Origin: a virus
Taxonomy: Duplodnaviria; Heunggongvirae; Uroviricota; Caudoviricetes
Length of the DNA: 16,094 nt
Strand: one strand, 5' to 3'
IMG/VR virus record: IMGVR_UViG_2778261454_000010
Span: 1 to 16,094 of that record
The notes beneath the pieces are model-generated. The model was not told the origin of the DNA, ran no database searches, and saw nothing but the letters and a program-made list of their open reading frames with translations. The translations under genes and the position numbers were made by a program. Below are positions 1-7,746 of the stretch, one piece after another (the stretch's first letter is position 1; each line of letters starts with the position of its first letter).

Positions 1-714
1 TCAGATTATAACCTTCTTCCAGTCTAATCCTCGGTCGTCAGCGTACTCGTCACTCATCCCATCAGTTGTATGACCGAGCAATGTTTTCACATCAATTCCC
101 TGCTTCTTGTATAGCCTCGAAGAGAGAGATCTCTGCTCATGAAAAGATGGTGGTGTGGACCCAGCAGGGAACTTCAGTCCTGATTCGTCTCTCGCGGTGT
201 AAAAATAGCGTGATATTGAGTTAACCTTGATTTTACCGCCAGGTAAGGCTGATCCATGAGCGACGGTATGATGTACAAGATATTTGCTGACTACACCGTC
301 TCTACACCTTGCTACTACTTCTCTCAACGACATGCCGATAGCATCAAGCCTCAGTGATAAAGGGATAGCAACCTTCGAGCCTGTCTTGTTCTGGTTGATG
401 TGGAGGTGATCATCCCAAATATCAGAGAACTTTAGGTCTACAATATCGCCCGCTCGCTGCCCTGTAACCAACGCCAGAAGCATCGCGTTTTGAGCTGCAT
501 CCTGCATCCTCTCGGCGTGCTCATAAATAATCTTCCACTCTTCAAGTGTCAGGCGTTTACGCTTCACCTTAGCAACAGGATTTCTGGCAGCTAATGCCGG
601 ATTGTAACCTGGTGGAACCTCGCCAGCATGTTGCGCTTCCTTGAAGACGTCGTTTAAAACAGCCCTGACAAGCTGCCCTATCGCAGGTACGCTCTTCGCC
701 TTCTTTGTGCCAGG
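1..714 (-). pseudogene. int: Lambda-family tyrosine integrase, C-terminal catalytic region only (about 140 N-terminal residues missing)
   Basis: The minus-strand frame is open from 714 to a TGA stop at 3..1. The translation (..KRLTLEEWKIIYEHAE..LLALVTGQRAGDIVDLKFSDI..HEQRSLSSRLY..LLGHTTDGMSDEYADDRG) aligns by eye with the lambda Int catalytic domain. An in-frame TAG lies at 715-717 and there is no in-frame ATG; the only possible start is GTG at 565-567. Confidence 0.8.
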
Positions 715-997
715 CTACAACGTCGGCCACTGGCTCGGCGTTAACTACCGGTGCTGGCGGGGCGGTGTATAGCGGCAAACCTTGCCCACCGCCTGAGAAT
801 TGGTTATGTCCGTTATATTCAATTTCGTCACCGTGAGCACATACCCACGCCACAGGCTCGGCGTCCATTGCCGCCAGCGCGATACGGAAAACCTGAGCCG
901 TCATGCTGTTTTCTGAGTGCTCATCGTGAGCCGGGTCAGTGAGAAAGCCCGTGATGAATACTCGAAGCTCATGCTCTTTTGTGATTGGGGTTGTCAT
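569..997 (-). CDS. Hypothetical protein; the first ~95 residues look protein-like, the C-terminal ~45 residues are read out of frame across the integrase 5' region
   Basis: Six-frame ORF whose 3' portion (569-714) overlaps the integrase frame in a different phase and translates to a Cys/Arg/Gln-rich tail (..RTCDRAACQGCFKRRLQGSATCWRGS..). The start overlaps the stop of the upstream HNH gene (994-997). Confidence 0.3.
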   Translation of the reverse strand: MTTPITKEHELRVFITGFLTDPAHDEHSENSMTAQVFRIALAAMDAEPVAWVCAHGDEIEYNGHNQFSGGGQGLPLYTAPPAPVVNAEPVADVVAWHKEGEERTCDRAACQGCFKRRLQGSATCWRGSTRLQSGISCQKSCC

Positions 998-1701
998 ATT
1001 TTACCGTTCTCCAGTTTTTCTCCCTCGCCAAAAAAATCTCCGTGATACTTTCTCCTAGCTTCCATAGAAACAAGGCCTGCAAGCTCAATATCATCGTACA
1101 ATCCAAGGGATAGCTTCCTGCCATCAACGCCGATTGTTACGTACCATTTGGAAAACTTTTTATGCCAACTAACACCTTTAATTCCGCTAGTGTTGTGTGA
1201 ATGAACCTTCTGGTTTCTTGCGTTGTCTGCCCTACTTGCGTTTCTCAGGTTTATCCATCTGTCATCATTTCTTACTCTATTGATATGATCCGCTTCTGTA
1301 GGGAATTTCCCGGGCATATACAGAAATGCAAGCCTTCCTGCTTTATATTCCTTACCATTAATTTTTATATGCCTATATCCAGTGTGATGAATGCACCCAG
1401 CGATATCTCCACACTTAAAACCTCCCTTTGTATTTTTAATCCGAGTAAATACACCTGTATCTGGGTTGTAATGCAGATGCTCTTTCAAGACGTCCTGAGT
1501 TACCAGCGCCAGCACGTTGGCTGGCGTCGCTTCATCGTGAAATGAGTTAAGCGCCGTTATGTCCGCATCAAGCTGGGTGCCTTCAGCGAGTGAGATATCG
1601 AAAAGATCGCCCTCTGGCATCACGCTCAGACGCTCATACGCTCCCGTCGCGTTCAGCGCCGCCGCTTTCATACGCTGCGCCAGTTCTGTTGTCATGCTCA
1701 T
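994..1701 (-). CDS. HNH endonuclease (HNH_3-like motif) with a C-terminal AP2-like DNA-binding segment; phage homing-endonuclease-like
   Basis: ATG at 1699-1701 is preceded by GGGAGG and overlaps the TGA of the upstream 69-aa gene (ATGA). The translation carries ..GYRHIKINGKEYKAGRLAFLY..EADHINRVRNDDRWINLRNASRADNARNQ.. (HNH-type) and ..GIKGVSWHKKFSKWYVTIGVDGRKLSLGLYDDIELA.. (AP2-like). Confidence 0.75.
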   Translation of the reverse strand: MSMTTELAQRMKAAALNATGAYERLSVMPEGDLFDISLAEGTQLDADITALNSFHDEATPANVLALVTQDVLKEHLHYNPDTGVFTRIKNTKGGFKCGDIAGCIHHTGYRHIKINGKEYKAGRLAFLYMPGKFPTEADHINRVRNDDRWINLRNASRADNARNQKVHSHNTSGIKGVSWHKKFSKWYVTIGVDGRKLSLGLYDDIELAGLVSMEARRKYHGDFFGEGEKLENGKI

Positions 1702-1907
1702 GCTGCCTCCCAGCAAATCTGAGTTTTATAGACGCTCTTAACGCGTTGCACTTTTCCGGCAACTTCAAGCTTCTTCAGTCTGCGCAATACGTATGCGGTA
1801 TCGAGAGGTCGGTAGTTATCTCGAAGCCAGTTCGTCACTACGTAGGTCATGCAGCGACCATGCTCATTCAGCACCTGAATGATTTCTTCATCGGTTGGCT
1901 TGTTCAT
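1698..1907 (-). CDS. Small hypothetical protein, 69 aa (possible winged-helix DNA-binding fold, inferred)
   Basis: ATG at 1905-1907 is preceded by CGAGGAG with an 8-nt spacer, directly after the methyltransferase TAA. Its stop overlaps the HNH gene start. The sequence (..MTYVVTNWLRDNYRPLDTAYVLRRLKKLEVAGKVQR..) looks helical and basic. Confidence 0.5.
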   Translation of the reverse strand: MNKPTDEEIIQVLNEHGRCMTYVVTNWLRDNYRPLDTAYVLRRLKKLEVAGKVQRVKSVYKTQICWEAA

Positions 1908-1922
1908 GCTGCTCGCTCCTCG

Positions 1923-2660
1923 TTATTCACCATCACACAGCATGGAGAATGCTGCCGCTGCCACTCTTGGAACTTGTCCATTGCCAAGGGCTTTAATTCT
2001 GTCCACCCGATGGGCCACCCCATGAACCACTCGACCCATTCCGGGTTCAACTGTCCATCCTGGGGTGGCTGCGACCCATCTGGAAGTGGACGCATCTTTA
2101 TTGCACTTGGCAAGTCCGGAGTTCTGCGTAAGCGCTCGCTTGGACAATCGCCCCGTATTGTTGCTTTCGCTGTAGGCCACAATCCACATCCTGTCTCTTT
2201 CATGGGGCGCTCCGCAGTTCGATGCTGAAATACGAAACCACTCACAGCCACACCCCATTTCGGCAAGGTTACCAATGACCACTGCAAGGCCTTTTCCTCT
2301 GAGTCGCGGCGAATTTTCCACGCAGACGAATGCAGGTCGTACCTCACTGACGATTCTCGCCATTTCTGCCCACAGTCCAGAACGGCGTCCATTGATGCCG
2401 GCACCATGACCATTTGCGCTAATGTCCTGGCATGGAAACCCGCCAGATATGACATCAACAATCCCTCTCCACGGCTTTCCGTCAAAACTGCACACGTCAG
2501 ACCAAATCGGGAAAGGGCGGAGAATTCCATCGTTTTGTCGTTGCGCGAGAACTTGTGCTGCGTAGGCATCACGTTCAACTGCGCATACTGTTCGCCAGCC
2601 AAGGAGATGCCCTCCGAGTATTCCTCCGCCAGCGCCTGCGAAAAGAGCCAACTCATTCAC
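1923..2660 (-). CDS. DNA (cytosine-5)-methyltransferase, small phage-type enzyme of about 245 aa
   Basis: GTG start at 2658-2660 with GGAGGT five nt upstream, overlapping the TGA of the upstream ORF. Motifs read in order: I ..ELALFAGAGGGILGG.., IV ..GGFPCQDIS.., VI ..FVCVENSP.., VIII ..GAPHERDRMWIVA.., X-like ..RIKALGNGQVPRVAAAAF... Stop TAA at 1923-1925. Confidence 0.85.
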   Translation of the reverse strand: MNELALFAGAGGGILGGHLLGWRTVCAVERDAYAAQVLAQRQNDGILRPFPIWSDVCSFDGKPWRGIVDVISGGFPCQDISANGHGAGINGRRSGLWAEMARIVSEVRPAFVCVENSPRLRGKGLAVVIGNLAEMGCGCEWFRISASNCGAPHERDRMWIVAYSESNNTGRLSKRALTQNSGLAKCNKDASTSRWVAATPGWTVEPGMGRVVHGVAHRVDRIKALGNGQVPRVAAAAFSMLCDGE

Positions 2661-3015
2661 CGTTACCTCCGCGCAGCTGCCTTGCCAGATATTCAAGAGC
2701 CATTGCCGGAACGCCGACATGTCCTGTGCACGCAAATTTCGTGAGCAAATGCTCAATGGCTTTATCAACACCCCGCGCCTCAGCTTCTCGCAGGATGCTG
2801 TCTGTTGCCGGAGTTTCATGACAGGCACACAGCAATTCATGAATTGTCTGCATATCGACAATATCGCCGTCCGGCTGCTGTGTTAAATTCCACCGCTTAT
2901 AAATCTGGACTGACTCATCAGCCAGTAATATCGCCGCCGACTTAATCGCCAAATTCTCAGCCACCAAAGCCTTCAAATGCTCCTGCAACTCCACACCCTG
3001 TGGACAGTTCGTCAC
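2653..3015 (-). CDS. Hypothetical phage early-region protein, probably 5'-truncated at the 3060-3075 junction
   Basis: The frame is open upstream to 3072 with no ATG; the annotated start is GTG at 3013-3015. The TGA stop overlaps the methyltransferase start. No recognisable motif. Confidence 0.4.
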   Translation of the reverse strand: MTNCPQGVELQEHLKALVAENLAIKSAAILLADESVQIYKRWNLTQQPDGDIVDMQTIHELLCACHETPATDSILREAEARGVDKAIEHLLTKFACTGHVGVPAMALEYLARQLRGGNGE

Positions 3016-3072
3016 TTCACGCGCTTTCTCAATCGTTGAGTGTGCTGCTGTTAGTTCGCCTGCATGGTCGAG

Positions 3073-3314
3073 TTACCGGTCTCACCAATTACCGTGATTG
3101 CGGTAATGGTCTGAAGATTGACCTGGTTACTAACCCTGAACTGCTGGAGAAAGACATCAATGCCGCGCGTTCTGCTGCATGGTTCTATGCCTCCAAAGGT
3201 TGCCTGAAGTACACCGATGACCTGGTGCGCATCACTCAGATTATCAATGGCGGGCAGAACGGCATTAACGACAGACGCGTGCGTTACGCCAAAGCGAAAG
3301 CGGTGATTGCATGA
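3073..3314 (+). pseudogene. Endolysin remnant: C-terminal ~80 aa of a GH19 (chitinase-like) phage lysozyme; catalytic N-terminal part missing
   Basis: The translation ..TGLTNYRDCGNGLKIDLVTNPELLEKDINAARSAAWFYASKGC..ITQIINGGQNGINDRRVRYAKAKAVIA matches the conserved C-terminal block of GH19 endolysins as I recall it. Upstream in-frame sequence (3000-3070) is not protein-like and overlaps the minus-strand ORF. The stop overlaps the spanin start (ATGA at 3311-3314). Confidence 0.6.
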
Positions 3315-3589
3315 GCATTGTAGAAATCATCATTGGTGTCATTGGCGCTATCTGTGTTGCCGCTGCTAGTGGGTTTGGTCTTGGCCACATTCACGGTACC
3401 AGCAAAGCAGAAGCGAAAGCCGATCAACAACGCACTGAAGAAAACGCTGCCGCCATGAAAAAAGCTGCAGATCGTTGTGTGGAAGTCATCAAGGAGACAA
3501 GAGATGTGCAGGAGAATGTTAGTCGCATGCCTGATGACGATGTTGATCGCGAGCTGCGCGAAAACTTCACCCGCCCCGGTGGTGATTGA
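3311..3589 (+). CDS. Rz-like inner-membrane spanin (i-spanin)
   Basis: The N-terminus (MSIVEIIIGVIGAICVAAASGFGLG) is a single hydrophobic TM helix, followed by a charged, helical periplasmic segment. It sits directly after the endolysin remnant with ATGA coupling. Confidence 0.6.
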   Translation: MSIVEIIIGVIGAICVAAASGFGLGHIHGTSKAEAKADQQRTEENAAAMKKAADRCVEVIKETRDVQENVSRMPDDDVDRELRENFTRPGGD

Positions 3590-3716
3590 TACCGGTTGCC
3601 TGTGGGCACGGATTGTCTATCTGACCAACAGCGATATTGACCTGCTGGATAAGCAGACGAAGCGCGACATCCTAGCGCATAACAAAGCGTGGCAGGCGAA
3701 CTGTCAGAAAAAATGA
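3504..3716 (+). CDS. Rz1-like outer-membrane lipoprotein spanin (o-spanin), overlapping the i-spanin in the +1 frame
   Basis: ATG at 3504 with AAGGAG seven nt upstream. The N-terminus MCRRMLVACLMTMLIASC carries a lipobox (I-A-S-C) and the mature part is Pro-rich. It begins inside the Rz-like gene and extends past its stop. Confidence 0.55.
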   Translation: MCRRMLVACLMTMLIASCAKTSPAPVVIDTGCLWARIVYLTNSDIDLLDKQTKRDILAHNKAWQANCQKK

Positions 3717-3731
3717 ACTAATTAATGCAGT

Positions 3732-4319
3732 TTATAAAAAAATCTCTTCTGCGCATAAAAGATAACTTTCGTAAAAAGTTATCCCAAGCTCTGCAATAAC
3801 TATTGGATTTTTAGAATTCACTTCTTGTCCTAAGTGCGACTGAGGAGGGTTGTATGTGATCCCACGGTTACGACATGGAACTGCCTCTACTGAGCTTTGA
3901 GTAACTTCAACTCTCATTGGTGAGCCTGGAACGATTGTTGCACCACCATTACTATCAAATGAAATTGATTTGATGTGAACCATGCCACCTTGCTTTTCTG
4001 GATAGATACTAAACCCGCCAGGAACATATTTAGAGGTATCAGCAATCCCATGATGTGCTGAATTTCTGGCTTGCTTGAGATAGATGAGTAAACTATCAGA
4101 ATCACGCAGGTAGTTTGTTTTTGATGAAAATGAAGGGTATTTCTTGTGCTGCGCAGCAGCTACTTTTATCTTACCGTATACGTTTTCAATGCGGCTCAAA
4201 AAATCGCTCCAAGCCTCATCGTACTCATCATATGACTTAGCATTCTTCATACGCTCAACGCAGCGCTTTGCTCTTACCAATTCTTTTCTTGAAGGAAGTA
4301 AGTCCATTACCGTCACCAT
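3732..4319 (-). CDS. Orphan hypothetical protein (195 aa) in an AT-rich cargo segment; function unknown
   Basis: Long ORF on the minus strand, convergent with the spanin genes. Sampled 60-nt lines in this segment are about 38-42% G+C versus about 55-67% in the structural genes. No signal peptide, TM segment or assignable catalytic motif. Alternative ATG at 4305-4307 has GGTGA upstream. Confidence 0.6.
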   Translation of the reverse strand: MVTVMDLLPSRKELVRAKRCVERMKNAKSYDEYDEAWSDFLSRIENVYGKIKVAAAQHKKYPSFSSKTNYLRDSDSLLIYLKQARNSAHHGIADTSKYVPGGFSIYPEKQGGMVHIKSISFDSNGGATIVPGSPMRVEVTQSSVEAVPCRNRGITYNPPQSHLGQEVNSKNPIVIAELGITFYESYLLCAEEIFL

Positions 4320-4444
4320 TTTTAGTAGAAATGAAAAGCAAAGCTAACTCTTCATGAAACTTTAATCAATTAGCCAATAACCGAACTACAAATTATCCCC
4401 ACAAACGGATAAGACAATCAATATACCCTCTAAAGGATAAAACT

Positions 4445-4645
4445 ATGACGCCATTAGTTCTGACAGCAGAGCAGATAAAATCTCTTGCAGAATTTGCGGA
4501 GCAGGAAGGTCAGCCGTTCTATACCATCACCCACTCAACCATCCCTGAGTTTGAATCAGAAAGTGGTGATGTTGTTCCGGCATATGAAGGGCTGATTGCC
4601 TACTCAGAGTCAGAGGAACACGGCGTTCTTCAGCTCGACGACTGA
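4445..4645 (+). CDS. Small, highly acidic hypothetical protein (66 aa; about 14 Asp/Glu against 1 Lys)
   Basis: ATG at 4445 with AAGGA about seven nt upstream. The translation is MTPLVLTAEQIKSLAEFAEQEGQPFYTITHSTIPEFESESGDVVPAYEGLIAYSESEEHGVLQLDD. First gene of a short operon that ends at the terminator at 4978-5000. Confidence 0.5.
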   Translation: MTPLVLTAEQIKSLAEFAEQEGQPFYTITHSTIPEFESESGDVVPAYEGLIAYSESEEHGVLQLDD

Positions 4646-4684
4646 ACTGCCATTACAGAAGCTCTTCATTCAGGGGCTTCGATA

Positions 4685-4960
4685 ATGACCTTGAAATCTA
4701 TGGCCTTATCCGAGCATACTTTAGCAACCCTCCGTGTTGGTGGGGTGTTAAAGGGGATTGTTATGCTTGATAATTATTTCTACGATAAAAGTGGTTTTGA
4801 GCAAAAAGACGAAGTTAAGCGAGAAAAAGCAGTAGCTGCTGTACTTGAAATCCTTAAAGTTTCTGCTGGTCACTCACCAAGCCACGTAATTATTAGTGCT
4901 CTTAAGAACGAAGTAAATGAAGCAGCGGATGCGATTCAAGGAGCATTGGATAAAAAGTAA
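4685..4960 (+). CDS. Hypothetical protein (91 aa), second gene of the cargo cassette
   Basis: ATG at 4685 with AGGGG eight nt upstream. The sequence is helical and Lys-rich at the C-terminus. Followed 18 nt downstream by a strong intrinsic terminator. Confidence 0.5.
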   Translation: MTLKSMALSEHTLATLRVGGVLKGIVMLDNYFYDKSGFEQKDEVKREKAVAAVLEILKVSAGHSPSHVIISALKNEVNEAADAIQGALDKK

Positions 4961-4977
4961 CTGAGATGAAATAACAT

Positions 4978-5000
4978 AAACCGCCTATGGGCGGTTTTTT
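4978..5000 (+). terminator. Rho-independent terminator
   Basis: Perfect 8-bp stem AAACCGCC / GGCGGTTT with loop TATG, followed by a T-run to 5000. Confidence 0.75.
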
Positions 5001-5136
5001 ACTGCCATCACTGTGGGTAGGCTCATCCTAATAGCAATATCCCCCGCAAGGGATAATTAACGTGATATCCCCGTCGGGGGATAAAATCATATTTAAGCCA
5101 CTGGTATCCGCTGGTGGCTTTTTTATTGGAGTGAAT

Positions 5137-5427
5137 ATGGCATCCAATTCACCGTGGCATAGCCTCTATAATTCCAAGCGCTGGTACCGACTCCGATATC
5201 ACCAGCTTCAGAAGCAGCCTCTCTGCGAGTTCCACCTCCGGCGCAATCAGGTTATAGCCGCCACGATCGTTGACCATATCACCCCGCACAAGGGTAACGA
5301 GGCGCTATTTCATGACCAGGACAATCTTCAGTCACTCTGCAAACGTTGCCACGACTCGGTAAAGCAGAGGATGGAGAAGGGTGGAACGGTCACCGAGTTC
5401 GATAATAAAGGCCGTGTTATCTGGTAA
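5137..5427 (+). CDS. HNH endonuclease, packaging-associated (HK97 gp74-like position next to the terminase genes)
   Basis: ATG at 5137 with GGAG five nt upstream. HNH signature in the translation: ..CEFHLRRNQVIAATIVDHITPHKGNEALFHDQDNLQSLCKRCHDSVKQ... Located immediately upstream of TerS and TerL. Confidence 0.8.
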   Translation: MASNSPWHSLYNSKRWYRLRYHQLQKQPLCEFHLRRNQVIAATIVDHITPHKGNEALFHDQDNLQSLCKRCHDSVKQRMEKGGTVTEFDNKGRVIW

Positions 5428-5439
5428 CAGGAGTAGTTG

Positions 5440-5649
5440 ATGCAAGACATGAAGATTGAATACCGTGATGGGAAGTTGATTGAGTTGAGCATTGATAGCG
5501 TGAGCTTTAAACATGCCACTGCAGTCTCCTTCAATCATGAGGTCGTTGAGATGCTGCCTACCATTACCCTCACATTGCCAATCGGCGTTGGTGATCGTCT
5601 GGTGCCCTCTGGCATACCTCACTCAAGCTTACACGTAATTGAGAAATGA
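5440..5649 (+). CDS. Small hypothetical protein (69 aa) between the HNH and TerS genes
   Basis: ATG at 5440 with AGGAG six nt upstream. No recognisable motif. Confidence 0.4.
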   Translation: MQDMKIEYRDGKLIELSIDSVSFKHATAVSFNHEVVEMLPTITLTLPIGVGDRLVPSGIPHSSLHVIEK

Positions 5650-5769
5650 TATCAATTCTCATATTTATTTTGGTAAGGGAGGGGGTGGGATAAAACTCTG
5701 GTACCAAATTCTTAAAGACCGCGCCCTCAACTCTTTTTTTAAAAACGTCCAGAAAAAAAGGAAAAACCG

Positions 5770-6204
5770 ATGGCACAGCGAGGCAGAAAGTCTCTGGCTG
5801 CGACGTCTGCTGTCTCGTTGCCGGCACTGGCTGAAAGCAGGCTGCAGCCGTCCATTCATCTGAGCGATCCGGAAATTAATGTATGGGTAAGGCTCGTTAA
5901 TGACAATCCAGCTAGTTCATTCACTGAAACTCATCGAGACATGATGGAGATGTACTGCCGCCATGTTGTTCAGGCCAGAATAATCACCACTCAGCTTGAA
6001 GAGTTTGAACTGGAGTGGCTATCGCGCGAGGACGGACTTAAGCGGTACGACAAGCTTCTTGCCATGCGCGAGCGTGAAGTGCGTTCGGCATCTTCACTGG
6101 CAACACGTTTAAGGATCACCCGCCAGGCTACTGCCGACCCAAAAACAGTTGGCCGAGCGCACAACAATCTGGCTCGGGAGAAAAAACCCTGGGAAATTGA
6201 TTAA
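5770..6204 (+). CDS. Terminase small subunit (P27/HK97 gp1-like, by position and N-terminal basic segment)
   Basis: ATG at 5770 after an A-rich AAGGA region. The N-terminus MAQRGRKSLAATS.. is basic. The gene lies directly upstream of the large terminase gene. Confidence 0.7.
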   Translation: MAQRGRKSLAATSAVSLPALAESRLQPSIHLSDPEINVWVRLVNDNPASSFTETHRDMMEMYCRHVVQARIITTQLEEFELEWLSREDGLKRYDKLLAMREREVRSASSLATRLRITRQATADPKTVGRAHNNLAREKKPWEID

Positions 6205-6213
6205 GGCTCTTTG

Positions 6214-7746
6214 ATGGCAAAAAAAAATCTGACAAGAGCCGAGAGAAATATTCTCTGGTGCGAAAGAAATATTGTTATTCCTGAAGGAAAGTTCGTGGGC
6301 CAGCCACTGAAAATGGCTGAGTTCATGAAGGATGATTTTAGGGCTATTTTCGATAACAAGCATGGCACACGTCGCGCAATTATCAGCCGTGGGCGAAAGA
6401 ACGCCAAAACGGTAGAGACCGCCATGCTGATGCTGCTCTACCTGGTGGGGCCGGAGGCGGCGCCGAACTCGCAGCTGTATTCTGCCGCACGCTCGCGTGA
6501 CCAGGCGGCCATTCTGTTTAACCTGGCCTCCAAGATGTGCCGGATGAATCCGGTGCTCATGCAGTATGTGGCGATAAAGGACTCGGCGAAAGAAATTCAC
6601 TGCCCCGAACTGGGTTCTTATTATCGGGCGCTGAGCGCAGAGGCCACGACTGCCTATGGTTTCTCGCCTCGATTTGTCGCGCATGATGAACTGGGACAGG
6701 TTCGTGGGCCCCGTGATCCCCTTTATGAAGCACTGGAAACTGCGACTGCTGCTCAGGATAACCCTATCTCGGTGATTATCAGCACTCAGGCGCCCGATGC
6801 GAGCGATCTACTCAGCCTGCTGATTGATGATGGACTGACCGGTGCTGACCCGCGCACGGTGGTCCGTCTACAGACGGCCCCGGAAGATATCGATCCTTTC
6901 TCCGTTGACGCCATAAGGCTGGCAAACCCGGCCTTCGATGTGTTTATGAACCAGAAAGAAGTGCTTGATATGGCCGCCAGCGCGAAGCGCCTCCCGTCAC
7001 GACAGGCTGAGTTTGAGAACCTTGTGCTGAATCGCAGGGTTGAAGCTAAAAGTCCTTTCGTCAGTCAGACAGTCTGGCACATGAATAAAGAAGAACCCGG
7101 CGAACTGGCAGGGGCTACCGTCTGGGGCGGGCTGGACCTTTCCAGTGTCTCGGACCTTACCGCACTGGTACTCAACACAACCCAGGGTGATGTGCACTGT
7201 AAGTTCTGGCTACCTGAAGAGGGGCTGGCGGACAAGGCGCGTAACGATCGAGTGCCTTATGACATCTGGGCCAGGCAGGGTTTTCTCAATACGACACCCG
7301 GAAAGGCCATTGAATATGCATTTATTGCGCGCGAAATGCGGCGCGTTTTCGACATTTGCAATGTCAGGGCGCTGGCGTTCGACCGTTACAACATGCGTTT
7401 CCTTCGCCCACATCTAATAGACGCAGGATTCACGGAAACTGAGCTCGAGCGGTTCGTGGAATTCGGCCAGGGCTTTGTCTCCATGTCACCTGCGCTGAGG
7501 GAGCTGGAAGCCAAGCTACTCGGAGCGCAGCTTAAACATGGCAACCATCCGATCCTCGAAATGTGCGCCAAAAACGCCACGGTTATTTCTGATCCCGCCG
7601 GAAACCGAAAGTTTGTGAAAGGTAAATCAAGCGGGCGTATCGATGGAATGGTTGCTCTGGCGATGTCAATCGGCGCCCAGACGAGTGATGAGGTGGAGGA
7701 TCCAGGCGACGTCAATGATTTCATTTATAACTTCTTGAGCGTGTAA
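6214..7746 (+). CDS. Terminase large subunit (ATPase plus nuclease)
   Basis: 510-aa product with an ATPase region (..RFVAHDELGQV.. Walker-B-like) and a C-terminal nuclease region. Standard position after TerS. The ATG at 6214 is preferred over the TTG at 6211. Confidence 0.9.
   Translation: MAKKNLTRAERNILWCERNIVIPEGKFVGQPLKMAEFMKDDFRAIFDNKHGTRRAIISRGRKNAKTVETAMLMLLYLVGPEAAPNSQLYSAARSRDQAAILFNLASKMCRMNPVLMQYVAIKDSAKEIHCPELGSYYRALSAEATTAYGFSPRFVAHDELGQVRGPRDPLYEALETATAAQDNPISVIISTQAPDASDLLSLLIDDGLTGADPRTVVRLQTAPEDIDPFSVDAIRLANPAFDVFMNQKEVLDMAASAKRLPSRQAEFENLVLNRRVEAKSPFVSQTVWHMNKEEPGELAGATVWGGLDLSSVSDLTALVLNTTQGDVHCKFWLPEEGLADKARNDRVPYDIWARQGFLNTTPGKAIEYAFIAREMRRVFDICNVRALAFDRYNMRFLRPHLIDAGFTETELERFVEFGQGFVSMSPALRELEAKLLGAQLKHGNHPILEMCAKNATVISDPAGNRKFVKGKSSGRIDGMVALAMSIGAQTSDEVEDPGDVNDFIYNFLSV

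What the first reader, a model, noticed from the sequence alone, without database searches (positions are those of the whole stretch)
3717..4444. AT-rich orphan gene (195 aa) inserted between the lysis cassette and the packaging genes
Seen in sequence: a 588-nt minus-strand ORF (3732-4319) convergent with the Rz/Rz1 genes, in a segment that is about 38-42% G+C on sampled lines while the flanking structural genes are about 55-67%. The translation has no signal peptide, TM helix or nucleotide-binding, HNH or methyltransferase motif that I can assign. Established knowledge: the slot between the lysis genes and the terminase in lambdoid prophages is a classical moron/cargo site for exclusion, virulence and anti-phage genes. 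Inference: this is horizontally acquired cargo and a candidate single-gene defence, exclusion or host-interaction function. I cannot place it in any family from memory, which does not by itself make it novel.
Basis: partly seen in the sequence, partly recalled or inferred. Interest (0 to 1): 0.7.

Follow-up and report, generated by a model that had tools for sequence, protein, structure and literature searches.

The report
Prophage cargo gene, candidate solo RNase defence
The AT-rich gene is real, is mobile cargo that always sits just after the lysis genes of enterobacterial prophages, and belongs to a large unnamed protein family whose only invariant residues resemble an RNase (HEPN) active site, so it is a good but unproven candidate for a single-gene anti-phage defence.

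Summary
The ORF is real (3732-4319, minus strand). The true start is probably 4307, giving 191 aa. It is under purifying selection and has 40% G+C against 50-55% in the flanks.

It is not an orphan. A profile search finds 1,781 clusters (50% identity), all unnamed, with no Pfam, NCBIfam or PADLOC match; PHROG 23516 is 'unknown function'.

In six enterobacterial genera, and in 29 of 35 IMG/VR contigs, the gene lies directly after the spanin genes, antisense to the late operon and before the packaging genes. Between prophages whose flanks are 91-97% identical, a ~730-bp promoter-plus-gene cassette is swapped for a 45%-identical allele. Relatives elsewhere sit in a type I R-M operon, on small plasmids beside toxin-antitoxin or Fic genes, or as single-gene islets. 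There is no conserved partner gene.

The AlphaFold model (pLDDT 92) is a helical bundle with a beta-rich insert. Arg85-x4-His90 is invariant in 275 sequences and sits at the end of helix 3, where HEPN RNases carry Rx4-6H. However, profile and fold comparisons to HEPN families are not significant.

Best reading: a stand-alone HEPN-like abortive-infection nuclease, analogous to HepS or Tha (confidence about 0.45). That it is cargo is firmly shown; the chemistry and the phenotype are untested.

The parts
3732..4307 (-). Coding sequence, 191 aa from the likely true start (Met5 of the 195-codon ORF, which extends to 4319). Soluble, basic protein of a large unnamed family.
   Evidence: ORF. Start and Shine-Dalgarno sequence. 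Family size. Purifying selection. pI and absence of TM helix. PHROG 23516, unknown function.
4313..4317 (-). Shine-Dalgarno-like GGTGA, 5 nt upstream of the ATG at 4307.
   Evidence: Sequence read. Equivalent GGTGA/AGGAG elements precede the MDL/MDF start in the Klebsiella, Enterobacter, Leclercia and Cronobacter alleles.
4392..4421 (-). Sigma-70-like promoter candidate for the gene (TTGATT, 18 nt, GATAAT) in the 31% G+C divergent intergenic region 4320-4444.
   Evidence: Consensus scan, 9 of 12 matches. Intergenic G+C. Not validated; the number of sites is close to that in shuffled sequence.
4050..4067 (-). Codons for Arg85-Asn-Ser-Ala-His-His90 (195-aa numbering), the invariant Rx4H motif at the C-terminal end of helix 76-89.
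   Evidence: Arg85 and His90 are identical in 275 of 275 family sequences. Helix position comes from the AlphaFold model. This matches the published position of the HEPN Rx4-6H motif (PMC3710099).
3852..4034 (-). Beta-rich insert (residues 96-156, eight strands) between the motif and the last helix. Proposed sensor or regulatory module.
   Evidence: AlphaFold2 model, pLDDT 82-92 over this stretch. No significant structural match. The role is inferred.
3834..3845 (-). Codons for Pro159-Pro-Gln-Ser-His162. Pro159 is conserved in 99% and His162 in 97% of sequences, in the loop before the C-terminal helix 172-194.
   Evidence: Conservation counts. Secondary structure.
3710..4444 (.). The autonomous cassette: gene plus promoter region, about 0.73 kb.
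   Evidence: Homology to the F467 prophage stops at 3709. In Enterobacter/Klebsiella-type prophages an equivalent ~730-bp block, from 118 nt upstream of the start to 29 nt after the stop, has no nucleotide homology between flanks that are 90.7% and 96.9% identical.
3710..5120 (.). Whole variable cargo segment of this prophage: the gene plus orf66 (4445-4645, +) and orf91 (4685-4960, +).
   Evidence: There is no homology to the closest E. coli relatives between 3710 and 5113-5121. orf66 and orf91 are absent beside the gene in all other loci. Both match PHROGs of unknown function.
3311..3716 (+). Spanin genes Rz (3311-3589) and Rz1 (3477-3716). They are the conserved left neighbour, convergent with the gene.
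   Evidence: PHROG 1026 and 1275, E = 3e-27 and 1.7e-31. Lysis genes lie just downstream, on the opposite strand, in 29 of 35 viral contigs.
5062..7746 (+). Packaging module to the right of the slot: HNH endonuclease, small terminase (5770-6204) and large terminase (6211-7746).
   Evidence: Pfam and PHROG hits. Gene tables of identical loci.

Best explanation
The finding is a self-contained prophage cargo cassette of about 0.73 kb: its own promoter and one gene. It is placed immediately after the spanin genes and runs antisense to the late (lysis and packaging) transcript.

It encodes a soluble, basic 191-aa enzyme of a large unnamed family. The most likely function is a stand-alone HEPN-type, metal-independent ribonuclease acting as an abortive-infection effector.

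Proposed mechanism:
1. The gene is transcribed from its own promoter in the lysogen.
2. The protein is held inactive, because there is no antitoxin gene.
3. A component of an infecting phage switches it on, probably through the beta-rich insert wedged between the catalytic motif and the last helix.
4. It then cleaves RNA using the Arg85/His90 site, stopping phage growth.
5. When its own prophage is induced, read-through late transcription from the opposite strand would damp its expression.

Shown here: it is a gene, it is cargo, the slot is conserved, alleles are swapped as a cassette, it works without a partner gene, the Rx4H motif is invariant and the fold has the stated topology.

Inferred: RNase chemistry, the trigger, the Abi outcome and antisense silencing.
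For: **Cargo and slot**
- The gene has the same position and orientation in E. coli, Klebsiella, Enterobacter, Leclercia and Cronobacter prophages, which carry GH19, GH108 or GH24 lysins and different terminases.
- Of 35 IMG/VR contigs, 29 have lysis genes just downstream on the opposite strand and 22 have packaging genes upstream.
- The F467 relative has another minus-strand gene in the slot.

**Arms-race signature**
- The family protein is only 39-46% identical between two allele groups, while the adjacent 485-aa protein is 84-92% identical between the same groups.
- Nucleotide homology is lost over exactly the promoter-plus-gene block.

**Conflict-system contexts**
- A Rhodoferax locus reads hsdM-Fic-hsdS-x-[gene]-hsdR.
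- Two Acinetobacter MOBQ plasmids carry it, one among BrnT/BrnA pairs and one beside Fic.
- One locus is next to an IS110 transposase.
- The gene is 8-14 G+C points below its locus in every host except the Acinetobacter plasmid.
- It is absent from 50,697 cultured phage genomes.

**Solo arrangement**
- No family recurs among 89 neighbouring proteins, and orf66/orf91 are not conserved beside it.

**Catalytic signature**
- In 275 sequences Arg85, His90 and Trp37 are 100% conserved. Asp75, Pro159 and Tyr80 are 99%, His162 97% and Arg72 96%.
- The residue after Arg85 is N, D or H in 60% of sequences.
- The helix-2 position 45 is acidic in 87%, and position 50 is Lys/Arg in 96%.
- The motif sits at the end of helix 3 of a helical bundle (pLDDT 92). 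This is where the HEPN Rx4-6H motif lies (PMC3710099).
- HepT HEPN toxins (5yep, 7ae8, 7ae9) are among the weak Foldseek hits.
- There is a borderline Pfam DUF4145 hit, a HEPN-clan family, at E = 0.08.

**Precedents**
- HepS is a solo prophage HEPN Abi activated by the tail-tip protein (PMC13043305).
- Tha is a prophage HEPN RNase whose activity is coupled to the life cycle by antisense architecture (PMC11087260).
Against: No statistical link to any HEPN family was obtained.
- hhalign of the family profile against a DUF86/HepT profile gives a probability below 1%. When forced, it pairs the HepT motif with Arg72 rather than Arg85.
- hhalign against Tha-1 gives nothing.
- No HEPN-clan Pfam family recurs among 69 full-length or 80 N-terminal sequences.
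- There is no sequence hit in the PDB.
- The best Foldseek E-values are 0.1-1. Generic four-helix bundles (NiSOD, cytochrome b562) score as well as or better than HEPN toxins, both for the full model and for the helical part alone.

Other weaknesses:
- The residue after Arg85 is Gly in 37% of sequences, and the acidic/basic pair is spaced Ex4K rather than Ex3[KR].
- Two further near-invariant residues, His162 and Asp75, would also fit a metal site.
- No PADLOC model matches.
- There are no expression or phenotype data.
- The promoter is only a consensus match, at a frequency close to chance.
Confidence: 0.45

Rival explanations
1. It has the same cargo or defence role but different chemistry. 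The protein is not a HEPN RNase. It is a new enzyme or ligand-binding protein built on a four-helix bundle, for example a metal-dependent hydrolase using His90, His162 and Asp75 (or Glu45), with Arg72, Arg85, Tyr80 and Trp37 binding the substrate.
For: - Eight or more near-invariant polar or aromatic residues are present, more than a minimal HEPN site needs.
- All profile and fold comparisons to HEPN are non-significant.
- The best structural neighbours include the metal-binding bundles NiSOD and engineered cytochrome b562.
- Weak hits to DUF3788, of unknown function, recur in 5 of 69 and 4 of 80 sequences.
Against: - The exact Rx4H spacing is invariant in 275 sequences. It is followed mostly by N, D or H, and it sits at the end of helix 3, which is a specific HEPN hallmark.
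- No HExxH, HxH or other known metal motif is present.
- NiSOD and cytochrome b562 hits are the usual generic matches for any up-down bundle.
Confidence: 0.25
2. It is a toxin or addiction-type selfish module whose main role is to stabilise the element that carries it (prophage or plasmid), not to defend against phages. It would be neutralised by an unrecognised antitoxin, such as a small RNA, a tiny ORF or a host factor.
For: - It occurs on small mobilizable Acinetobacter plasmids among BrnT/BrnA modules.
- It is retained intact in several differently deleted, defective E. coli prophages.
- It is AT-rich, mobile and under purifying selection.
Against: - There is no conserved neighbouring ORF in 13 genome loci or in the prophage loci.
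- There is no Rfam match in the window and no direct repeats in the 3400-5300 region.
- The upstream regions of the alleles are unrelated in sequence.
- The strict post-lysis, antisense slot in prophages and the R-M operon context fit defence better.
Confidence: 0.12
3. It is a lysogenic-conversion or host-interaction factor of the lambda bor type. It would be expressed from the prophage to change host physiology or virulence, without targeting phages.
For: It has the same position and orientation as the classical lambda bor moron, which lies downstream of Rz on the opposite strand (my own knowledge of lambda). It has its own promoter-like site.
Against: - The protein is cytoplasmic, with no signal peptide, lipobox or TM helix (model).
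- The family is spread through environmental Proteobacteria, Nitrospira and Longimicrobiaceae, mostly in metagenomes. This does not fit a host-adaptation factor for enteric pathogens.
- The invariant catalytic-looking residues point to an enzyme.
Confidence: 0.08
4. It is an accessory function for the phage's own lytic cycle, such as lysis timing or packaging help, and is linked to the lysis cassette for that reason.
For: The gene is almost always adjacent to the spanin genes, in 29 of 35 viral contigs.
Against: - It is on the strand opposite to the late operon in every case.
- It is absent from all 50,697 cultured phage genomes, and related prophages carry other genes in the slot.
- It also occurs on plasmids, in an R-M operon and as islets between housekeeping genes.
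Confidence: 0.05

Closest known systems
HepS (HEPN Solo) of Salmonella prophage Gifsy-1 (PMC13043305; PDB 9OIJ/9OIK)
   Same: - A single prophage-encoded protein with no partner or antitoxin gene.
- About 200 aa with a canonical Rx4-6H motif.
- Sits in an accessory-gene slot of a lambdoid prophage.
- The proposed logic is the same: constitutively made, inactive until a phage late protein triggers it.
   Different: - No detectable sequence similarity to any PDB chain, and HepS is not among the top Foldseek hits.
[quoted passage not shown]
- A roughly 60-residue beta-rich insert follows the motif.
- Activity, oligomeric state, substrate and trigger are untested here.
Tha-1/Tha-2 of Staphylococcus aureus prophages (PMC11087260)
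   Same: - A prophage-borne HEPN RNase defence.
[quoted passage not shown]
- The motif R-N-S-x-x-H resembles R-N-S-A-H-H.
   Different: - Tha is 301 aa with a C-terminal HEPN domain. It lies in the cI operon and has a dedicated inhibitor, Ith.
- Here the protein is 191 aa and no inhibitor gene is conserved.
- hhalign finds no relation.
- Here the immune gene itself is antisense to the late operon.
HEPN superfamily, especially minimal HepT/DUF86 toxins and R-M-embedded Abi HEPN families (PMC3710099)
   Same: - A four-helix up-down core with Rx4H at the end of helix 3.
- A polar residue after the Arg in most members, and an acidic residue in helix 2.
- Occurs inside a type I R-M operon and beside Fic genes, as described for several HEPN families.
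   Different: - No significant profile or fold match.
- No MNT partner.
- A large beta insert lies between helix 3 and helix 4; only Csx1 is described with a beta-hairpin there.
- Additional near-invariant His162, Pro159, Asp75 and Trp37.
Lambda bor-type morons (positional class)
   Same: An autonomous gene with its own promoter, downstream of Rz/Rz1, transcribed against the late operon, and AT-rich relative to the phage backbone.
   Different: Bor is a small outer-membrane lipoprotein. This protein is cytoplasmic and enzyme-like. It belongs to a family that also lives outside phages.

Membership tests
HEPN superfamily | Conserved Rx4-6H motif | tested here: met
   Arg85-x4-His90 is identical in 275 of 275 family sequences.
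HEPN superfamily | [quoted passage not shown] | tested here: met
   In the AlphaFold model (pLDDT 92) the helices are 8-25, 30-55, 61-74 and 76-89; I read 61-89 as one kinked helix. The motif lies at the end of this helix, followed by the insert and then helix 172-194. This agrees with the definition in PMC3710099. Only the secondary-structure order could be checked, not the 3D packing.
HEPN superfamily | Polar residue (N/D/H) right after the Arg, and an acidic residue in helix 2 (Ex3[KR]) | tested here: inconclusive
   Position 86 is N 36%, D 17%, H 7% and G 37%. Position 45 is E/D in 87% and position 50 is K/R in 96%, but the spacing is Ex4K.
HEPN superfamily | Detectable profile or fold similarity to an established HEPN family | tested here: not met
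   - hhalign against a DUF86 profile gives probability below 1%; against Tha-1 there is nothing.
- Pfam gives only one DUF4145 hit, at E = 0.08, and no recurrent HEPN hit.
- Foldseek E-values are 0.7 or higher, and generic bundles score equally well.
HEPN superfamily | Metal-independent RNase activity at a composite dimer site | not testable with these tools
   This needs biochemistry, or at least a multimer model.
HepS family | Sequence or structural homology to HepS (9OIJ) | tested here: not met
   phmmer and hmmsearch against all PDB sequences give no hit at E up to 10 other than noise. HepS is not among the top 50 Foldseek matches. The HepS sequence itself could not be retrieved, because the LT2 Gifsy-1 record lacks it.
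HepS family | Stand-alone prophage gene without a partner | tested here: met
   No conserved neighbour is found.
Tha system | Tha-type protein plus overlapping antisense inhibitor gene (ith) | tested here: not met
   hhalign against Tha-1 finds no match. The divergent acidic orf66 is not conserved beside other alleles.
Type II toxin-antitoxin module | Conserved adjacent antitoxin gene | tested here: not met
   The 89 neighbouring proteins from 13 loci share no family. The prophage loci have different neighbours.
Known anti-phage systems (PADLOC-DB v2) | Match to a system model | tested here: not met
   There are 0 families at E up to 1.
bor-type moron (positional class) | Autonomous gene after Rz/Rz1 on the opposite strand | tested here: met
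   Supported. The lipoprotein character of Bor itself is not met.

The most novel reading that the evidence does not exclude
The protein is not a HEPN domain at all. It would be the founding member of a new single-protein sensor-effector immune family: a helical-bundle enzyme with a built-in beta-domain sensor and a novel Arg/His/His/Asp active site. It would be spread across Proteobacteria and beyond, and would have its own dedicated, exchangeable cassette site behind the lysis genes of lambdoid prophages.
Probability: 0.2. Interest if true: 0.8.

Novelty: new variant of a known kind. Interest (0 to 1): 0.58.

Why it matters
If the phenotype is confirmed, this adds a widespread single-gene defence family to the anti-phage repertoire. 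The family has at least 1,781 clusters at 50% identity and is missing from Pfam, NCBIfam and PADLOC; PHROGs lists it only as a family of unknown function.

It would also define the post-spanin, antisense position of enterobacterial prophages as a cassette-exchange site for such genes.

It would give a second architecture, besides HepS, for a partner-less HEPN-like effector that has to sense infection by itself. The beta insert is an obvious candidate sensor, and the natural allele series (39-46% identical alleles between 84-97% identical flanks) is a ready-made resource for mapping trigger specificity.

The gene is small, so it is directly testable.

Tried and rejected
**Family libraries.** Pfam, NCBIfam and PADLOC gave nothing for the protein itself. 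Pfam also gave nothing useful for 69 relatives, for consensus sequences or for 80 N-terminal fragments.

**PDB.** Sequence searches with the protein and with the family profile gave nothing.

**Fold searches.**
- Foldseek against PDB found no significant match, for the full model or for the helical part alone.
- Foldseek against BFVD gave only one unnamed viral protein, with TM-score 0.52-0.60.

**Direct HEPN tests.**
- I tried to fetch HepS from the Gifsy-1 record. The LT2 copy has no such gene.
- I looked for a DUF4145 gene in the E. coli K-12 immigration-control region and found none.
- hhalign against Tha-1 and against a DUF86 profile, built from hits to a typed consensus, was not significant.

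**Partner hypotheses.**
- orf66, an acidic 66-aa protein divergent from the gene, was considered as an Ith-like inhibitor. It is rejected as a conserved partner because it is absent beside all other alleles.
- The 485-aa neighbour was considered as a partner. It is rejected because it stays 80-100% identical while the gene diverges to 39-46%. It looks like phage backbone or separate cargo.

**Other checks.**
- The N-terminal extensions in a few long homologues look like gene-call artefacts.
- The 15-nt inverted repeat bracketing the cassette (3701-3715 and 4452-4466) is at chance level (my estimate).
- There is no Rfam family in the window.
- Literature searches found no description of this family.
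Full report
**1. The observation**

The window has a 195-codon minus-strand ORF at 3732-4319. Its stop lies 15 nt from the stop of Rz1 (3477-3716), so the two are convergent. Rz (3311-3589) and Rz1 are confirmed by PHROG 1026 and 1275.

To the right lie two small plus-strand ORFs, then an HNH endonuclease, the small and large terminase, the portal, a protease and the capsid gene.

The ORF has 40.3% G+C and GC3 of 33.7%. The lysis and structural genes have 50.5-55% G+C and GC3 of 44-68%. 300-nt windows over 3601-4500 give 38-42%.

The protein has no TM segment and a pI of 8.7.

The true start is probably Met5 at 4307, for three reasons:
- GGTGA lies 5 nt upstream.
- All homologues begin MDL or MDF behind their own ribosome-binding sites.
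- The public annotation is 191 aa.

Among six enterobacterial alleles, non-synonymous differences are 0.17-0.40 per site while synonymous sites are saturated at 0.68-0.89. This is a protein-coding gene under purifying selection.

**2. It is not an orphan**

- A word-indexed search found 35 clusters, in Enterobacter, Leclercia, Citrobacter, Cronobacter and Klebsiella, plus a distant Hydrogenophaga protein.
- An exhaustive profile search found 1,781 representatives at 50% identity with E at or below 1e-3, and 1,223 at or below 1e-10. Nearly all are 170-210 aa.
- A second profile search returned 174 proteins; the 120 listed are almost all unnamed or called 'hypothetical protein', and none has a Pfam domain.
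- Pfam, NCBIfam and PADLOC give nothing. The only library hit is PHROG 23516, of unknown function.
- The exact E. coli allele exists only in draft assemblies and metagenomes. No copy is present in 5,426 complete E. coli genomes, even at low stringency. None of 50,697 cultured phage genomes has one.

**3. It is mobile cargo with a fixed address**

In E. coli, Klebsiella, two Enterobacter lineages, Leclercia and Cronobacter, the gene lies immediately after the spanin genes on the opposite strand and before the packaging genes. The lysins differ (GH19, GH108, GH24) and so do the terminase types.

Thirty-five IMG/VR contigs carry relatives. I searched them with a probe panel of lysis and packaging proteins:
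- 29 have lysis genes just downstream on the opposite strand.
- 22 have packaging genes upstream on the opposite strand.
- 21 have both.

This holds for alleles down to about 30% identity.

The closest complete E. coli relative is the prophage of strain F467. It is homologous to the window up to 3709 and again from 5121, and it carries a different minus-strand 141-aa gene in between. Another relative carries DUF2560 and a hypothetical gene there.

The most telling result concerns two groups of Enterobacter/Klebsiella-type prophages:
- The neighbouring 485-aa protein is 84-92% identical between the groups, while the family protein is only 39-46% identical.
- At the DNA level, 90.7% identity runs to 118 nt upstream of the start codon, and 96.9% identity resumes 29 nt after the stop. 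The ~730 bp in between share no detectable homology.

It behaves as an exchangeable promoter-plus-gene cassette.

In every host examined but one, the gene is 8-14 G+C points below its surroundings; in Hydrogenophaga it is 51% against 65%. The exception is an Acinetobacter plasmid, where gene and locus are both about 35-36%.

**4. Contexts outside prophages**

I retrieved 13 genome loci from Beta- and Gammaproteobacteria, Nitrospira and Longimicrobiaceae. Their 89 neighbouring proteins share no recurrent family, so there is no partner gene.

Several copies are single-gene islets between housekeeping genes: accC and prmA, yggX and rpiA, and after pgk.

Informative exceptions:
- A Rhodoferax locus reads hsdM-Fic-hsdS-148 aa-[gene]-hsdR.
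- Two small MOBQ Acinetobacter plasmids carry the gene. In one it lies between two BrnT/BrnA toxin-antitoxin pairs; in the other it is next to a Fic protein.
- One locus is next to an IS110 transposase.

These are the settings in which abortive-infection and toxin genes are usually found. The HEPN survey lists R-M operons and Fic/Doc neighbours as typical for several HEPN families.

In this window, the co-resident orf66 (pI 4.05) and orf91 are not found beside any other allele.

**5. The protein**

AlphaFold2 with a 20-sequence alignment gives a confident model (mean pLDDT 91.9, pTM 0.80). It has helices 8-25, 30-55, 61-74 and 76-89, then eight short strands (96-156), then helix 172-194.

Conservation across 275 family sequences:

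| Residue | Conservation |
|---|---|
| Arg85, His90, Trp37 | 100% |
| Asp75, Pro159, Tyr80 | 99% |
| Ala84 | 98% |
| His162 | 97% |
| Arg72 | 96% |
| position 50 | Lys/Arg 96% |
| position 45 | Glu/Asp 87% |

In a 69-sequence alignment the only fully invariant columns were Arg85, His90 and Pro159.

Arg85-x4-His90 reads R-N-S-A-H-H here and A-R-[GND]-[AS]-[DE]-x-H in the family. It sits at the C-terminal end of the third long helix, and the chain then leaves the bundle.

[quoted passage not shown] It also describes a polar N, D or H after the Arg, an acidic residue in helix 2, and occasional inserts. The Csx1 family has a beta-hairpin right after the motif (PMC3710099). The anatomy here matches this description. 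The unusual feature is a roughly 60-residue beta-rich insert between the motif and helix 4.

**6. Attempts to prove HEPN membership failed**

- No HEPN-clan Pfam family is hit by 69 full-length members or 80 N-terminal fragments.
- One consensus sequence hits DUF4145, a HEPN family, but only at E = 0.08.
- I built a DUF86/HepT profile from real proteins. hhalign gives a probability below 1%. In a forced alignment it pairs the HepT motif with Arg72 rather than Arg85.
- Tha-1 of phage 80alpha gives nothing.
- Foldseek against the PDB has no hit better than E = 0.1. HepT toxins (5yep, 7ae8, 7ae9) are among the top 50, but so are NiSOD and cytochrome b562, which are generic four-helix bundles.
- A model of the helical part alone (pLDDT 82) behaves the same way.

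HEPN is therefore a well-motivated hypothesis, not a demonstrated membership. An alternative, a metal site formed by His90, His162 and Asp75, cannot be excluded.

**7. How it most likely works**

The best-supported model is a partner-less HEPN-like abortive-infection nuclease.

Two recent precedents make this concrete:
- HepS of Gifsy-1 is a single HEPN protein made constitutively. It is inactive as a tetramer, is opened by the tail-tip protein J of infecting siphoviruses, and then cuts tRNA anticodon loops (PMC13043305).
- Tha of S. aureus prophages is a HEPN RNase triggered by minor tail proteins. Antisense 'noncontiguous operon' architecture switches immunity off on induction (PMC11087260).

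Here the gene has its own AT-rich upstream region with a sigma-70-like site (4421-4392). No terminator-like site was found between it and the convergent late genes.

In an intact prophage, late transcription would therefore run antisense through the gene. This is a plausible way to avoid self-targeting, but it is an inference.

The beta insert is the obvious candidate for a sensor or autoinhibitory module. This too is an inference.

In this window the prophage is defective. It is identical to the intact prophage L001 only from 3073 onward, the endolysin is truncated to its C-terminal half, and the early, immunity and holin regions are gone. The cassette would thus be free of antisense late transcription here. 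It has been retained intact in at least three different deletion derivatives.

**8. Rivals**

| Reading | Confidence |
|---|---|
| Same role, non-HEPN chemistry | 0.25 |
| Addiction or toxin module with a hidden antitoxin | 0.12 |
| bor-like lysogenic conversion | 0.08 |
| Lytic-cycle accessory function | 0.05 |

The last two are disfavoured by the cytoplasmic, enzyme-like protein, the opposite strand, the absence from cultured phages and the occurrence outside phages.

**9. Novelty and interest**

The kind is known: a prophage moron encoding a solo immune effector, probably HEPN-like. The family is unnamed. It is missing from every library searched except PHROGs, which lists it without a function.

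It has an architecture not described for HEPN proteins and shows a striking cassette-exchange behaviour at a fixed prophage site.

It is a strong and cheap experimental candidate rather than a surprise. Interest is about 0.58.

Noticed in passing
window 1-3073: The prophage in the window is defective. It is identical to an intact prophage (L001) only from 3073 onward, so the GH19 endolysin is cut to its C-terminal half (3000-3314). The holins, Q, replication and immunity regions are missing. The left side joins directly to minus-strand genes next to the integrase. Other assemblies show different deletion endpoints, all of which keep the cargo gene.
   Followed up: partly
window 1-997: The window's left end holds a 188-aa minus-strand ORF (1-567) matching the phage integrase catalytic domain, directly preceded by a separate 142-aa ORF (569-997). 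This looks like a split or inactivated integrase.
   Followed up: no
window 4445-4645 and 4685-4960: Two small plus-strand ORFs share the variable AT-rich segment: orf66 (very acidic, pI 4.05, PHROG 9518) and orf91 (PHROG 5901). Both have unknown function. Neither is found beside any other allele of the cargo gene, so they appear to be separate cargo.
   Followed up: partly
window 3701-3715 and 4452-4466: A 15-nt imperfect inverted repeat (13 of 15 bases) brackets the cassette almost exactly. By my estimate about 1.7 such pairs are expected by chance in 1.9 kb, so it is probably coincidence.
   Followed up: partly
window 4978-5120: A cluster of terminator-like hairpins lies just before the HNH gene, at the right edge of the variable segment: 4978-4997, the 5038-5055/5066-5083 inverted repeat, and 5095-5120. 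They may be a late-operon terminator or attenuator, or elements related to cos.
   Followed up: no
window 994-1716: A minus-strand 240-aa ORF combines an HNH_3 and an AP2 domain, a combination I associate with homing endonucleases, in the integrase-proximal region.
   Followed up: no
L028, L040, L044-L051, L057-L068 (about 3470-4940 and 2070-2750 in locus coordinates): In many Enterobacter/Klebsiella-type prophages the space between the cargo gene and HNH holds a conserved 485-aa protein and a ~196-aa protein on the late strand. Neither has a Pfam hit on record or a PADLOC hit. The 485-aa sequence has a glycosyltransferase-like VVVVDDGS motif. These may be DNA- or surface-modifying enzymes.
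   Followed up: partly
L025 3487-3912: The closest E. coli relative, the prophage of strain F467, carries a different minus-strand 141-aa gene in the same slot. It has no Pfam or PADLOC match and is another candidate cargo or defence gene.
   Followed up: partly
L017 1308-9738: A Rhodoferax type I R-M operon is interrupted by a Fic-domain gene, a 148-aa unknown gene and the family gene, between hsdS and hsdR. It looks like a compact multi-gene defence locus.
   Followed up: partly
family alignments A2 and A5: Pfam DUF3788, of unknown function, is hit weakly but repeatedly by family members: 5 of 69 full-length sequences and 4 of 80 N-terminal fragments, with a best E-value of 0.0067. This is a possible remote relationship that I could not resolve.
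   Followed up: partly
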